From Octopus sinensis (taxonomy: Eukaryota): a DNA stretch of 64,000 nt. Where the stretch lies: the NCBI RefSeq assembly GCF_006345805.1, contig NC_042997.1, positions 176,700,001 to 176,764,000 on the forward strand, read 5' to 3'. Below the pieces are notes generated by a model. The model was not told the origin of the DNA. It did no database searches and was given only the letters and a program-made list of their open reading frames with translations. Of the stretch, positions 10,491 through 47,286 are shown piece after piece. Each line of letters begins with the position of its first letter. The first letter of the stretch is position 1. A program made the position numbers and the translations under genes.

Positions 10491-11844
10491 AAGTACCATT
10501 TGTACATCTAGGAAATGTCTGTATGCACAGAGCCATGAGTTTTTGACAACTACACTCCCTAATTAATCTTTTGCTTGTTTCAGTCATTGGAGAGTGGCCA
10601 AGTTGGGGTACCACCTGGAAATGTTTAGCCAAACAAATCAATACTAGCGTTTATCTTTTTTAAAATTTTTATCTCTTTTGCTGAACTGCTAAGTTATGGG
10701 AACAGAAACAAACCAACACTGGTTCTCTAGTGAAGGTCATGGTGGGGGACAAACACACAATCACACACACACACACACAGAGTAAGAAATCACTTAGTAT
10801 AAATGACTATGAAGAAGGAGAAATTAAGATGAAAGGAATGAATTTATTTTGAACTTGAAAGAGCTCAGGTCATAAGAAGGAGGAAAACAATGAGATGGAA
10901 GAGAATTTCAAAGATATGGTCAGTTTAAATGCTAAAGGGTAAAATTATGCAAATCGCTTAGACCATAAATGTGTTCTATTATTATGTATAAGTTTAAGTT
11001 TCTTGGCTGATGGAGATAAGGTTGGACAAGTGTTGTGCTGATGATGTCTGTTGGGGCAGAAACACATGTCTACAACTGTCCCCTTATTTCAAATTCCTTA
11101 GTGATATAGCAACTTTGGAAAATTCTAGATTCTTGAGATTATCTCTCTTTCTCATATGAAACAAGTCTTAACTGCAATTTGGTAATTATGACACATCTTC
11201 TAGAAGCAGAGATAATTTTAATAAATCAAGAATTTATGTTGTATGGCATTTGATATATCTGGACTTGACTCTGTTGTTTATATCCATGCCACTGGCCATT
11301 CTGAGCTATTTCTCTTGGTGCATTTTGTTTAAGACACATAACTCTGCTTGCTTTATTTAACTAACAACAGTTTGTTCCTTCTTGAGCCATGCCTGGCCCA
11401 TAAGGGCCGGTTTCCTTGGTGTATATGTTCCCCACTTGGATGGGACGCCGGTCCGTCGCAGGTGAGCTGCAAGGTGCAGGAGGAAAGAGTGAGAGAAAGT
11501 TGTGGCGAAAGAGTCAGCAGAAGTTCACCATTACCTTCTGCCAGAGCTGCATGGAGCTTAGGTGTTTCGCTCATAAACACACACATCGCCCGGTCTGAGA
11601 TTCGAACCCGTGATCCCTCGACCGCGAGTCCACTGCTCTAACCACTAGGCCATGTGCCTCCACAACTAACAGCAGGATCTTGTCTCATTAAGTATTTAAT
11701 TAGTTAGCAGTAGTAAAGAGTAGTTAGCTGTTGGAACAACTGCGAGAAAAATATCATTATTATCCACCTTAGCCAGATTAAAAATGAATTTTAAACAGTT
11801 GCTAAAAGAAGTAATTGTGAAGGAAATGAAGGAAATTCACTTAC

Positions 11845-34786: not shown

Positions 34787-35739
34787 ACACGTGAAGATAC
34801 TTGGCTTTTCCAACGCCTTAGCCCCACCGTCGCCCGTGGTAATATTGTGAACGTGCTGGTTTGGTTCAGTAGGTTCTGCTGAACCTTGTGGTGCGCGACC
34901 AGTTGAAGCACTTAGTGCTGCATTGTTTTCTTCTCTTTCTTCCCCACAAATGGTTTCAATACAGTTTTAGCGGAGAGATCTAGAAGAATTTGAAGAAAGT
35001 TCTCCGGTTATTTTCTTTCATGTAAATAAATGTCAATTAACAAAAACAAAACAAAACAAAACAAACAAACAAGCAAACAAAAAACATTAGTAAATCAAAG
35101 AAAAATTTATATTTACAGAGGGAAAATCGTTGAGGGTCGCCGGAAGGCTACTTGAGGACCGCATGCAACCCTGGGAACTGCTGATTTAGATAGTAAAACG
35201 TTGAACTAGTTTTGTCATTGTAACCTCTTCAATGTTGACTTAGTCGATATTCATCATAAAAGTAGCAAGTTGGCAGGATTGTTTGAGCGTTGGTTAGAGT
35301 GTTTTGCGGTATTTGTTCCGGCTCTCTGCACTCTGAGTTCCAATCTCGCTGAGGTCAATTTTGCCTTTTATCTTTTCGGGGGTCGATAAATAAAGAATCA
35401 TTCCAGTACTTGTGTCAGTAGTATCTTAAAACATGGACGCACTTTTGGAACTAACTTACTTTATTATATGAAATATTATCTAATTCTCTGACTATGGTTA
35501 TGTAGTGGATCTTGCAGGCATAATGTAGATTCGATCCTAGATAGCCAAATTTAAATTAACACTTTAACTGCACATTTCTCATGGTAAAACAATAGTTTTT
35601 CTGTGATAGCAGTTTATATTTGCCCAGCGCCTTAGTTTAGCAAAATAATGTCTTCGCCACTTGACCCTTCTAACCTCTTCTATTTCACCAAAAGCTAGAA
35701 TTATGATAACAAGTACCACCAACGAAATCCATTGGTCTC

Positions 35740-37846: not shown

Positions 37847-37867
37847 GTCTGTCTGTCTGTCTGTCTA
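37748..37867. repeat. (TATC)n(TGTC)n microsatellite
   Basis: Direct reading. Confidence 0.95.
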
Positions 37868-38088
37868 TTACTCTTATACAAGAATGTTCTTGACAGTGAC
37901 TTCGAAGTATCGGGCATCGTCGGGCTACAAAAATGTAGAGTTACCCATCGGATTAGTGTGAAATTGTTATTATAACTGAACATAAAAACAAATGTATATA
38001 TATATATGTTTTTACAAAAAAAATTTATCCGGAGAAGAAGCTCACACTACGAAGTAGAGCAGTCTATATTTTTTCCTGGTGAAGTTTA

Positions 38089-38150
38089 TGGGGTTACCCG
38101 GGTTTCCCGTCCATAAAGGGTTTAACTTTATGGCGTATCGTCAGACCCCA
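38089..38150 (-). ncRNA. Type I hammerhead ribozyme with extra nucleotide after A9
   Basis: UGGGGU CUGACGA U ACG CCAUAAAG..CUUUAUGG A CGG GAA ACCCGGGU A ACCCCA; perfect 6-bp stem I; palindromic stem III; GUA site. Confidence 0.8.
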
Positions 38151-38235
38151 AGACCTGTTGGCCTATGACCTCTTTAAAAGTATTTTAAAGAGGTCATAGG
38201 CCAGAGTAACCCCATAAATTAGCTTTCACCAGGAA

Positions 38236-38282
<47 letters not shown>

Positions 38283-38480
38283 CAGTGAGACGGATGACCA
38301 CTATGTGGACAACCCTTATGCTAGAAGTAGATCCGCTATGGTCTTACCACTAAGAAATGTTCTCAAGAAAAATCTAGCAAAAATTTTTTTTCTTGAGAAC
38401 ATTTCTTAGTGGTAAGACCATAGCGGATCTACTTCTAGCATAAGGGTTGTCCACATAGTTGTCAAACCGCTCATTTGTAT
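38283..38480. repeat. Near-perfect ~90-bp-arm inverted repeat next to (TA)n
   Basis: ACTATGTGGACAACCC...TCTCAAGAAAA / TTTTCTTGAGA...GGGTTGTCCACATAGT. Confidence 0.9.
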
Positions 38481-38911
38481 ATAATACAGTTTACTGAACC
38501 TTCAGATTTTGTATGCTAGACCACTGGTGTTAAATTGATGTTAATTTAATTAAATTAATATCCAATTTCTCCCCTCATTATATATATGTACAGGTTAAAT
38601 AAAGTGAGACAATAAAGCTAAGGCAGTGTGAATTTTTTAGGACATTTTATAAAGAGAAGGGTAGTCTTACACCTGTTCAAGATATAAAATATATTCCCTC
38701 ACCAGAGACGATATGAGAGAGTTAAATAGAAGGAAATAGTAGAATTCAAAATAAGAAGTTATTTTGGAAAGCGAGGGATATAGGAAGTATAAAGGGAAAT
38801 ATAAGAATAATATATAGACATATATAGTCAGTAAATCATAAATCCGAAATAGACGCACACTCTTTTATAGAGCAGTAGAGTAATTAGATAAGGATAATTA
38901 TGGCCGGTCTA

Positions 38912-38973
38912 TGGAGTTACCCAGGGTTTCACGTCTATATAGCGCTTAGTTTTACAGCGTTTCTTCAGATCCT
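38912..38973 (-). ncRNA. Type I hammerhead ribozyme, diverged paralogue of 38089-38150
   Basis: GGAU CUGAAGA A ACG CUGUA..UAUAG A CGU GAAAC CCUGG GUA ACUCC. Confidence 0.7.
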
Positions 38974-39050
38974 AATATTGTATATATATATCTCTCTACA
39001 TACATACATACATACATACATACATACATACATACATACATACATACACA

Positions 39051-42391: not shown

Positions 42392-42485
42392 CCTTTACTC
42401 TCGACACATGTTTCGAAGACGGCATACTTTTATTCCGAAGGAATAAAGGGTGCATTATGCAATCTTCTCATCAGGAAAGATAAGG
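42392..42485 (-). ncRNA. Type I hammerhead ribozyme (inverted copy of 42857-42950)
   Basis: Reverse complement of the 42857-42950 motif within the fold-back arm. Confidence 0.85.
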
Positions 42486-42856: not shown

Positions 42857-42950
42857 CCTTATCTTTCCTGATGAGAAGATTGCATAATGCACCCTTTATT
42901 CCTTCGGAATAAAAGTATGCCGTCTTCGAAACATGTGTCGAGAGTAAAGG
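42857..42950 (+). ncRNA. Type I hammerhead ribozyme, long stem II
   Basis: CCUUAUCUUUC CUGAUGA GAAGA..UCUUC GAAAC AUGU GUC GAGAGUAAAGG; palindromic ACAUGU in stem III; GUC site at 42937-42939. Confidence 0.85.
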
Positions 42951-44009: not shown

Positions 44010-44128
44010 TGCTTACAGCACCTAGGTTTCCCAAGCGGTCACCCATCTAAGTACTAACTAGGCTCGATGTTGCTTAACTTCGGTGATCGGACGAGAACCG
44101 GTGCTTTCAACGTGATATGGCCGTAAGC
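44010..44128 (-). rRNA. 5S rRNA: 5S rRNA gene (solitary, full-length 119 nt)
   Basis: GCTTACGGCCATATCACGTTGAAAGCACCGGTTCTCGTCCGATCACCGAAGTTAAGC...GGGAAACCTAGGTGCTGTAAGCA; terminal helix GCTTACGGC/GCTGTAAGC intact. Confidence 0.95.
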
Positions 44129-44686: not shown

Positions 44687-44791
44687 GTACATGCGAGCAG
44701 ATAGGCGCAAAATAAACTGGAGAAAATAGCACTCGAATACCAATTGTAGAGTACAATATTAGGTTTTATGGAAGCTGAAAAACTTCACCAA

Positions 44792-44829
44792 CTGTTACTC
44801 AGAGTTTCACGAAAACGATCATCAGACAG
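44792..44829 (-). ncRNA. Minimal type I hammerhead ribozyme in inverted Penelope pseudo-LTR
   Basis: CUGU CUGAUGA UCG UUUU CGU GAAAC UCUGA GUA ACAG; same stem III as the 47181 copy; first stem II pair mismatched. Confidence 0.7.
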
Positions 44830-45382
44830 AAATAAACTATTGGAAGAACGTGGTGCTTTATAAATATTTATAAATAAAACAGCGATAATTATTTAAATAA
44901 CTTATCAAATAAGCATTTAAAGCTGATTGGAGAGGGATTATTCACTTTGAAAATGTTTGGAATTTGTTGGATAAAACGATTTAGCGGTAAAAATAACTCC
45001 AGATCTCGCAAGGGTAGCCTTAGAAAGGTATTGTGGTTCAACATTAATTTAGTATGCATGTCAAGACTAATGTAGATAAACATTTTAAAGTTTAGTACCG
45101 GGATATTTTCCCAGAAGGCATAATATATTACTCTTTTACTCTTTTACTTGTTTCAGTCATTTGACTCTGGCCATGCTGGAGCACCGCCTTTAGTCGAGCA
45201 AATCGACCCCAGGACTTATTCTTTGTAAGCCTAGTATTTATTCTATCAGTCACTTTTGCCGAACCGCTAAGTTACGGGAGACGTAAACACGCCAGCATTG
45301 GTTGTCAAGCGATGTTGGGGGGACAAACACAGACAAACAATCATATGCACACGCACATACATACATACACACACACACACAC

Positions 45383-45415
<33 letters not shown>

Positions 45416-47180
45416 GACAGGCTTCTTTCAGTTTCCGTCTGCCAAATCCACTCACAAGGCTTTGGTCGGCCCGAGGCTATAGTAGAAGACACTTGTCCAA
45501 GGTGCCACGCAGTGGGGCTGAACCCAGAACCATGTGGTTGGTAAGCAAGCTACTTACCACACAGCCACTCCTACGCCTATATTATAGATTATTTAATAGA
45601 AGAACCCTGAAAATCAGCTTCGCTTCGCTTGTTAACCAGCATTATATGAGTAAACATGATACTTGAAATGAAAATGATGACAACTCTAAGGGCAACTGTA
45701 AAGACTCTAGTAACTGTCCGCTTAATAGCAATTGTCCAATAAAAGGAGTTGTATACCGGAGTTGTATAAGTCCATGCCGATAATAGTCCTACATGTAAAA
45801 TTTACACCGGTGTCACGGAAAACAGTTTCAATATGAGGTTTTACCTATATAAAATTCCTTTCAATATCCAGACAACAGGCCCTCAACGTGTTTATCCAAA
45901 CATGTATGGTAATTAAAGGAAACTGGTTTTCCCCCTTGCAAAACACACTGGTAAATCTTGGAAAGAACAAGCCCACACATGTATGGATGGATCCTGCAGC
46001 CATCCTATGAAATGTTTGTTATACTTAAACGAGGAATATTTTATTGTTTCAGGACAATTCGATCTTGAATCGAAAATCTGAACTATGGAACAAGTCGTTG
46101 ACATTCTTCGAAGTTTTTGATTTCGAAGCCTTCACCACAGATCGATTAATGTATATACATCCATTACGCACTATCGCATGTGTTTTACAGCTTTTTGTTA
46201 TAATTTCGAATTTGTTGGATGTATTTTTTTATGTTTTTGAACTGACATTGTTGCATCCAATTTTTATACGATTCTTTTTTCAGTTTTAACATTTACCTTT
46301 AGCTTTTTATATAACCTTTCATTGACAAGGTTATAGTTTATAAATATGTTTATTACATTTTATTTTAATTTATTACTTTGTTACTCTTTTTTAAAACTAT
46401 CACTCCAGCTTTGAATTAATTTGACTGATTTTATCAACATATCCCCAAACGCTATTTCTATATCCTTATATATTTCGAAGTTGGATTTTGTTCGATATAT
46501 TTTCAATGTCTCTTTTTTTTCTAACCCAGAGCTTGCTTTTTGTTTCTGTCACATCCTACAAATAGAGTGCAAAGGAAACCTACCATCAAGTCTATCTAAT
46601 TTCCCTGTCAAATGTGTCCTTTCTAATCGCTGCTACCACACACACACACACACACACACACACTCGTGTATTTCTCTTTTATCCATAGTTTATACATGCC
46701 TTCAGTTTTAACTGATAGTATTTTTAAAACTTAGCTATCATCTTTTCTCTCTCGCTTTTCTCCCTCTTTTTCACTTTTTCTCTTTCTTCCCTGCATGCTC
46801 TAACCCACCACTCCTCATTTGATTATTCATTTATAATTTACTTGTATTTCGTGACACTCATTCATCTTTGTCTGAATTTATATATTTTTTACAACATATT
46901 TTCCATAAACTCTTGATTTCTATCGACATTTTTTTCACCCTCACTGCAATTATTATGACTAATATCATGTATATATATGCGAATTATTTCTTCGAGTTTA
47001 AATTCGACTTTGACTAGTTTTCAATGTTTATTTATTTTTTTTGATTACAAATTCCTGAAACTTTGAAAAGTCATGATCCCTATCCAATCAGCTTTAAATG
47101 GTTATTTGATGAATTAATAAATAATTGCCACTATTACATCTATATAAATTTATAAGCCATCGTATTGTTCCAAAAGCTCA

Positions 47181-47226
47181 ACCTTGTCTGATGATTGTTT
47201 ACAAGAAACTCTGAGTAATAGTCGGT
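47181..47226 (+). ncRNA. Minimal type I hammerhead ribozyme in Penelope 3' pseudo-LTR
   Basis: ACCUUGU CUGAUGA UUG UUUA CAA GAAAC UCUGA GUA AUAG UCGGU. Confidence 0.75.
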
Positions 47227-47286
47227 GCAGATTTTCAGTGTCAATAAAACACCACACACACACACACACACACACACACAATTTAT

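What the first reader, a model, noticed from the sequence alone, without database searches (positions are those of the whole stretch)
38075..38975. Tandem pair of variant hammerheads with an extra nucleotide between A9 and stem II
Two diverged same-strand HHRs lie with their GUA sites 823 nt apart (38095 and 38918). Both show CUGANGA-N-ACG...A-CG(G/U)-GAAAC. An extra residue after A9 is known in a few natural hammerheads such as the CChMVd (+) viroid ribozyme. Structure-preserving differences (stem II CCAUAAAG/CUUUAUGG versus CUGUA/UAUAG) argue for conserved folding. Two further fold-backs (38075-38233 and 38283-38480) overlap or lie between them.
Basis: partly seen in the sequence, partly recalled or inferred. 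Interest (0 to 1): 0.7.

Follow-up and report, generated by a model that had tools for sequence, protein, structure and literature searches.

The report
Stacked dead Penelope hammerhead ribozyme ends
The two self-cutting-RNA motifs are real, but they are leftover tail ends of an old jumping-gene family in an octopus genome, likely dropped independently into the same TA-repeat patch and predicted not to cut as they now sit; their "extra" base is a known trait of this class.

Summary
Both hammerhead cores are there (minus strand, GUA sites 38095 and 38918). The exact motif occurs 198 times in the genome (control 1). It is the 3' ribozyme of a Hydra-clade Penelope-like retroelement, a sister of published Hydra-1_Obim: GIY-YIG and RT remnants with Hydra motifs lie upstream in longer copies, and none examined was intact. 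The two copies belong to different subfamilies (72-77% alike). Fragments of two other hammerhead-bearing repeat families lie between them, so this is a stack of insertions, not a tandem unit. The fold-backs are the 5'-inverted arms typical of these elements. A nucleotide between A9 and stem II is a published trait of Penelope hammerheads and appears in Hydra-1_Obim. Here the constant base is the next A, and no copy has G10.1-C11.1. Family-level folding is supported (core more conserved than flanks; C-G/U-A swaps across a 1-nt loop III, fitting dimer cleavage), but on few lineage events. Copy B's CUGUA/UAUAG is mostly private decay. Neither copy is predicted to fold in context. The scan noted Hydra-type hammerheads elsewhere in this genome, but no look-alike of this family.

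The parts
38009..38179 (-). Insertion A, main arm: 5'-truncated 3' end of the Hydra-clade Penelope-like family, ending at the distal (long) terminus before (TA)n
38089..38150 (-). Hammerhead copy A (C3 38144, GUA ending 38095); core intact, stem I 6/6 and stem II 10/10 pairs, stem III strand ACCCGGGU with a private 1-nt deletion
38181..38233 (+). Insertion A, inverted arm: same element in the opposite direction with the ribozyme core deleted, ending at the proximal (short) terminus; pairs with and hides copy A's cut strand
   Evidence: (joint 38081-38156 in two DNA-like runs)
38235..38282 (.). (TA)n tract, likely target site
38286..38580 (+). Repeat Y: 3' part (38387-38580) of an unrelated high-copy unit of about 537 nt, with an inverted arm (38286-38372) that makes the 87-bp hairpin; other copies carry a long-stem-II hammerhead upstream of the part kept here
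38579..38825 (-). Repeat X: 3' end of another high-copy hammerhead-bearing family; its core here is broken (CUGGUGA...GAAC) at 38668-38705
38810..38976 (-). Insertion B: 3' end of a second subfamily of the same Hydra-clade family, cut off about 9 nt upstream of the core
38912..38974 (-). Hammerhead copy B (C3 38968, GUA ending 38918); core intact, stem I 4/6 and stem II 8/10 pairs

Best explanation
The two motifs are the 3'-end hammerheads of two subfamilies of an old Hydra-clade Penelope-like retrotransposon, likely inserted independently as short truncated copies into one TA-rich hotspot, and predicted not to fold into active ribozymes where they now sit. Shown: family membership, copy number, position about 100-200 nt behind the GIY-YIG frame in longer copies, subfamily split, intervening foreign fragments, inverted arms. 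Inferred: in the ancestral active element two copies of the ribozyme in a partial-tandem transcript paired through the palindromic stem III (ACCYARGGU, one central A·A) and cut after GUA, probably with protein help, to process the element's RNA; target-primed reverse transcription from two start sites gave the long and short 3' ends and the 5'-inverted arms.
For: 198 motif matches, control 1. Of 85 loci chosen by the endonuclease alone, 76 have the ribozyme region downstream and 68 cover it fully. Hydra motifs seen: CxCX5C linker, RWK, YRDD, CxxC..E..N..CxH (definitions). RT stretch 38 of 46 residues identical to Hydra-1_Obim by eye. A vs B identity 0.77 equals the family mean of 0.77; A is 0.94 to dispersed copies; B is 0.84-0.86 to its four nearest among 29. 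Inverted upstream arm in 9 of 25 insertions; in 6 of 6 where both arms could be classed, one is long and one short, as in insertion A. Core columns differ from the majority in 40 of 739 cells against 298 of 2603 in flanks (column test p=0.0004). Pair across loop III: C-G 27, U-A 26 of 70; stem I pair A-U 40, G-C 13. P(stem I) for A falls from 0.99 alone to 0 with its inverted arm; for B it is 0 in all four contexts.
Against: No cleavage or expression data. Covariation rests on few events: 3 changes each for the two best pairs on a weakly supported tree, and the independent-pairs test had 3 supported pairs and could not reach significance. Pairs with a two-sided change (15) do not exceed shuffles (322/500), and the U-A cells at the two CG pairs of stem II look like CpG decay. 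Pfam hits are below curated cut-offs (GIY-YIG E 0.006; RVT_1 E 0.003). No clean pLTR-ORF-pLTR copy was seen. Close same-strand pairs occur 3 times among the first 100 listed matches, more than uniform scatter would give; I put this down to shared TA targets but did not test it. Copy A is among the better-preserved copies, and equilibrium folding ignores cotranscriptional folding and proteins.
Confidence: 0.88

Rival explanations
1. A and B are the two ribozymes of one tandem non-coding unit (a retrozyme of about 823 nt) that self-cleaves as a dimer and circularises.
For: Same strand, 823 nt apart, within the 600-1000 nt size given for plant retrozyme circles (abstract of PMC5680766); both cores intact; stem III strands can form a duplex (-12.0 kcal/mol).
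Against: The spacer is made of two unrelated high-copy families in opposite directions plus (TA)n; none of the other loci searched matched A, X and B together; A and B are as far apart as random family members; the family is protein-coding upstream.
Confidence: 0.03
2. The insertions are independent but have been co-opted: copy A's catalytic half cuts copy B's GUA strand (or A cuts alone in trans) in a transcript that runs into the BBS4 gene, whose start codon lies 2.9 kb downstream on the same strand.
For: A core plus B cut strand gives 6 of 6 stem I and 4 of 4 stem III pairs; same strand as BBS4, ATG at 35164; A's core-deleted inverted arm is seen at single-copy depth in runs of two organisms.
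Against: Forming it costs about 24 kcal/mol in the 1-kb context, monomers 19-23; B carries private pair-breaking changes; only 28 of 68 family copies keep a full core, as expected for decay; it is not known that the region is transcribed with BBS4.
Confidence: 0.04
3. The family's motif was already a non-cleaving relic or a protein-binding structure, because it lacks the G10.1-C11.1 pair and carries two bulges near the core.
For: 0 of 68 copies have G10.1-C11.1; Penelope hammerheads cut weakly in vitro; in the Anolis element cleavage needed protein and was dispensable for insertion.
Against: Core bases are about twice as conserved as flanks; stem III palindrome kept through double changes; 14 of 25 published Hydra families also have U·U at this junction (counted by eye).
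Confidence: 0.15

Closest known systems
Hydra-clade Penelope-like elements, nearest Hydra-1_Obim of Octopus bimaculoides (Craig et al. 2021, PMC8557442; read: passages, section 11, File S1 Hydra sheet, File S2 table, alignment passages)
   Same: C-terminal GIY-YIG, CxCX5C linker, RWK, CxxC/CxH around E and N, (TA)n targets, 5' truncation with inverted arms, 3' hammerhead with palindromic stem III and 1-nt loop (16 of 25 families). Hydra-1_Obim's own ribozyme reads CUGAAGA-G then A-U, i.e. the same extra-base pattern as copy B.
   Different: Different ribozyme sequence; longer stem II (about 11 pairs) with two A bulges; 11.1 varies U/G/A between subfamilies; a 345-908-nt low-complexity stretch between the two GIY-YIG strands in 9 of 9 copies with both motifs, against about 30 residues in Hydra-1_Obim.
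Minimal type I hammerheads of metazoan Penelope-like elements (Cervera and de la Pena 2014, PMC4209133; read: main text, parts 1-3 of 4, no supplement)
   Same: [quoted passage not shown]
   Different: That paper names G10.1-C11.1 as highly conserved; it is absent here (0 of 68).
CChMVd (+) hammerhead with extra A10 (as summarised in PMC3705267; read: passages)
   Same: An unpaired base at the core/stem II junction.
   Different: CChMVd has A10 between A9 and G10.1 in a viroid ribozyme with loop-loop contacts; here the base after A9 is U in 57 of 67, the constant base is the next A (65 of 67), and stem III needs a partner copy.
Metazoan non-LTR retrozymes (bioRxiv 10.64898/2026.07.22.740005; read: part 1 of 5)
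   Same: Type I hammerheads, link to Penelope-like elements.
   Different: Retrozymes are tandem non-coding units; A and B are not units of one array. Repeat Y, between them, may be such an element.

Membership tests
Type I hammerhead ribozyme | Core CUGANGA...GAAA and NUH | tested here: met
   Both copies intact; 28 of 68 endonuclease-chosen copies intact
Type I hammerhead ribozyme | Helices I, II, III supported by comparison | tested here: met
   82.6% of cells paired against 28-45% for slid controls; covariation score 0.177, 0/500 shuffles; few independent events
Type I hammerhead ribozyme | G10.1-C11.1 closing pair (usual, not universal) | tested here: not met
   0 of 68; also absent in most published Hydra motifs
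Type I hammerhead ribozyme | Self-cleavage at the GUA | not testable with these tools
   Only folding predictions; contigs cannot show RNA ends
Hydra-clade Penelope-like element | RT followed by C-terminal GIY-YIG, ribozyme behind it | tested here: met
   L096 and L103 show RT, linker, EN and ribozyme in order; weak Pfam hits; homologues of the thumb region carry PF26215
Hydra-clade Penelope-like element | CxCX5C linker; CxxC and CxH flanking E and N | tested here: met
   CSCRDRNRC, CKLC...E...N...CLH
Hydra-clade Penelope-like element | RWK motif | tested here: met
   MRWKAFY in one locus, L058/L098
Hydra-clade Penelope-like element | DKT motif; placement in an RT tree | not tested
   No tree with published Hydra proteins was built; comparison by eye only
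Hydra-clade Penelope-like element | Insertion into (TA)n, 5' truncation, inverted arms, two 3' termini | tested here: met
Hydra-clade Penelope-like element | Full-length copy flanked by pLTRs with an open frame | tested here: inconclusive
   The 12 best RT-thumb hits after the query's own have open frames of at most about 400 aa; frames up to 717 aa belong to hits about 52% identical, likely another family. L103's two ribozymes are separated by foreign repeats
Non-LTR retrozyme (tandem non-coding unit) | Head-to-tail copies of one unit, each with a hammerhead | tested here: not met
   Spacer is foreign repeats; no array found by TRF
CChMVd-type extra-A10 hammerhead | Extra base between A9 and a G10.1-C11.1 pair | tested here: not met

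The most novel reading that the evidence does not exclude
Two dead retrotransposon ends have by accident built a split ribozyme upstream of BBS4: copy A's inverted arm hides A's own cut strand, leaving its catalytic half free to pair (10 of 10 pairs) with copy B's GUA strand 770 nt away and cut a BBS4 leader transcript. A milder and likelier novelty (about 0.4): this family defines a hammerhead sub-type with a free N10.1·N11.1 junction and two conserved A bulges in stem II, with natural compensation across a 1-nt loop as comparative support for obligate dimers.
Probability: 0.03. Interest if true: 0.65.

Novelty: new member of a known kind. Interest (0 to 1): 0.22.

Why it matters
Modest. It shows that a 'variant tandem hammerhead' in this genome is explained by stacked Penelope-like insertions and a published junction feature. 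The useful by-products are a Hydra family that differs from the one listed for octopus, a natural set of subfamily variants at the 10.1/11.1 junction for testing what the extra base does, and a C-G/U-A swap across a 1-nt loop that fits dimer cleavage. Rfam misses these motifs entirely.

Tried and rejected
Rfam: no hammerhead family hit; miRNA hits on the 87-bp hairpin are below gathering score and reflect a perfect inverted repeat. Long ORF inside 37860-39000: none of coding character. L103 as a full pLTR-ORF-pLTR copy: rejected, its upstream ribozyme is followed by microsatellite and other repeats. Independent-pairs test on the tree: too few supported pairs. Expression: no RNA holder listed; contigs of runs guessed to be RNA touch the repeats but cannot be assigned to this locus. 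Whether the BBS4 transcript reaches the ribozymes stayed open; no reads were laid on the wider region. X20 record 32 spans 38781-38976 with 11 differences, too little on the X side to count as bridging. Repeat X: no clear coding frame in six translations of two loci, so its parent is unassigned. In one search two lines (first context of A, stem III strand of B) had indexing slips; corrected. Lunse et al. on Penelope hammerhead dimers is not held; only its title was seen. Literature searches for this family or variant; only PMC8557442 held Penelope-like, hammerhead and octopus together. Supplements of PMC4209133 and of the bioRxiv preprint were not read and may show similar bulged variants.

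Full report
Observation. On the minus strand copy A has C3 at 38144 and its GUA ending at 38095; copy B has C3 at 38968 and its GUA ending at 38918, 823 nt away. The motif matches twice in the window and never in 100 dinucleotide shuffles. Rfam finds no hammerhead, only a 5S rRNA at 44010-44128. Both fold-backs are real.

Host. A window exon matches BBS4 with a 100% hit labelled Octopus sinensis. Twelve BBS4 coding segments map on the minus strand from 35164 down to about 571. The ribozymes lie 2.9-3.8 kb upstream of that start codon on the same strand. Whether they are transcribed with it is unknown.

The family. The pattern CTGANGANACG-N10-40-ACGKGAAAC has 198 matches in the 2.72-Gb genome against 1 for the control; a second pattern gives 135 against 0. 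Most of the 30 fetched copies are short and end in (TA)n or other microsatellites. Three extend upstream into a GIY-YIG frame. Searching with that protein gave 150 scored matches. I took 85 of them (the top 25 and 60 more chosen for reaching the C-terminus); 76 have the ribozyme region downstream, 68 fully; 9 without a hit and 8 partial ones were dropped. Longer copies show RT motifs, a CxCX5C linker, RWK, and CxxC and CxH around the endonuclease E and N. These are the marks of the Hydra clade (PMC8557442 section 11). A 46-residue RT stretch is 38 of 46 identical, by eye, to Hydra-1_Obim, whose ribozyme sequence is different. All close copies examined are broken; open frames up to 717 aa belong to hits about 52% identical, likely a younger family.

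Not a tandem pair. A and B are 0.77 identical over the ribozyme, the same as the family mean; A is 0.94 identical to dispersed copies, B 0.84-0.86 to its nearest four. Their diagnostic bases match two separate starred clades of a tree built from upstream sequence, in which the window copies themselves were not included. The spacer holds, in order from A: A's own inverted arm (38181-38233), a (TA)n tract, repeat Y with its inverted arm, and repeat X. X is a high-copy family with its own hammerhead, broken in this copy. Y is another high-copy family with a unit of about 537 nt in one tandem locus and a long-stem hammerhead upstream of the part kept here. Penelope-like elements are reported to insert into or next to earlier copies (PMC6765202 passage). 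Against full independence: 3 close same-strand pairs appear among the first 100 listed matches.

The fold-backs. Inverted 5'-truncated arms are typical of these elements (PMC8557442 passage). Of 25 insertions (30 loci less the two window copies and three overlapping loci), 9 have one; in all 6 where both arms could be classed, one ends at the long and one at the short terminus. Insertion A follows this rule. The core-deleted arm of A appears as a joint at single-copy depth in contigs of two organisms, so it is unlikely to be an assembly error.

The extra base. [quoted passage not shown] In the Hydra table 14 of 25 families read CUGANGA-U...U-GAA, 16 of 25 have a 1-nt loop III, and Hydra-1_Obim has an extra G before an A-U pair (counted by eye). 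In this family the base after A9 is U 57, A 5, C 3, G 2; the next base is A in 65 of 67; position 11.1 is U 28, G 27, A 11, C 2; none has G10.1-C11.1. The constant A can pair with 11.1 in only 29 copies, the base after A9 in 42.

Conserved folding. On 70 aligned sequences 82.6% of cells pair, against 28-45% for slid controls; cells with two-sided change 74 against 44.9 in shuffles; but pairs with two-sided change (15) do not exceed shuffles. The clearest swaps are C-G 27 / U-A 26 across the 1-nt loop III, A-U 40 / G-C 13 in stem I, and A-U 49 / G-C 4 in stem II. A pair closing a 1-nt loop cannot form within one strand (established RNA geometry, recalled), so this fits a dimer. Each swap needs only 3, 3 and 1 changes on the tree, and the independent-pairs test was uninformative. 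Core bases differ less than flanks (40/739 against 298/2603, with variable flank columns left out); hits were found with a profile seeded on intact cores, which may add some bias.

Activity of these two copies. Alone, A forms stem I with P about 0.99; with its inverted arm P is 0. B never forms stem I in four contexts. In the 1-kb context the active pairings cost 19-34 kcal/mol. A's catalytic half with B's cut strand pairs 10 of 10 but costs 24 kcal/mol. These are equilibrium predictions. Penelope hammerheads cut weakly as dimers, and the Anolis one needed protein and was dispensable for insertion in vitro.

Verdict. Real motifs, ordinary origin: decayed 3' ends of a Hydra-clade Penelope-like family stacked with two other ribozyme-bearing repeats. 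The family seems not to be the one published for octopus, within the searches made, and its double-bulged stem II is a small variation on a known kind. The scan has many notes on Hydra-type hammerheads in this genome but no look-alike of this sequence. Interest 0.22.

Noticed in passing
L053:6334-7161; L055-L079: The family's GIY-YIG domain is split by a 345-908-nt N/S/T-rich stretch between its two motif strands (9 of 25 copies had both motifs; in frame without stops in L061 and L053, frameshifted in most), against about 30 residues in Hydra-1_Obim.
   Followed up: partly
window 11028-11080 (+), 47178-47228 (+), 44786-44835 (-): Three more minimal hammerhead cores with palindromic stem III and 4-6 stem I pairs, of other families; the first lies in a BBS4 intron, antisense.
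   Followed up: no
window 42393-42484 (-) and 42858-42950 (+): Two identical long-stem-II hammerheads back to back, about 390 nt apart: a young two-armed insertion.
   Followed up: no
window 38286-38580; L089, L095: Repeat Y looks like a non-coding unit of about 537 nt, tandem in some loci, with a 47-nt stem II hammerhead; possibly a retrozyme.
   Followed up: partly
window 38579-38825; L032-L050: Repeat X: 5107 first-look candidates, compact hammerhead with a U·U or U·C junction, often in inverted pairs; coding parent not identified.
   Followed up: partly
G000 C24:28374128, C3:133912498, C5:61735949, C10162:53273: Hits about 52% identical to this family's RT thumb, many with identical scores and open frames up to 717 aa: likely a younger Hydra family.
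   Followed up: no
window 571-35164 (-): BBS4 gene, 12 coding segments mapped.
   Followed up: partly
window 44010-44128 (-): Single 5S rRNA gene, 113.8 bits.
   Followed up: no
A1 columns 12-32 with 92-107: Family stem I can extend to about 15 pairs with a 4-nt AACA bulge, a candidate for tertiary contact with loop II; outer helix only 69% paired.
   Followed up: partly
L017/L018 (G000 C1:183311735-183311970): A second locus where two subfamilies sit 193 nt apart on one strand, the second apparently inserted in the first one's (TA)n tail.
   Followed up: partly
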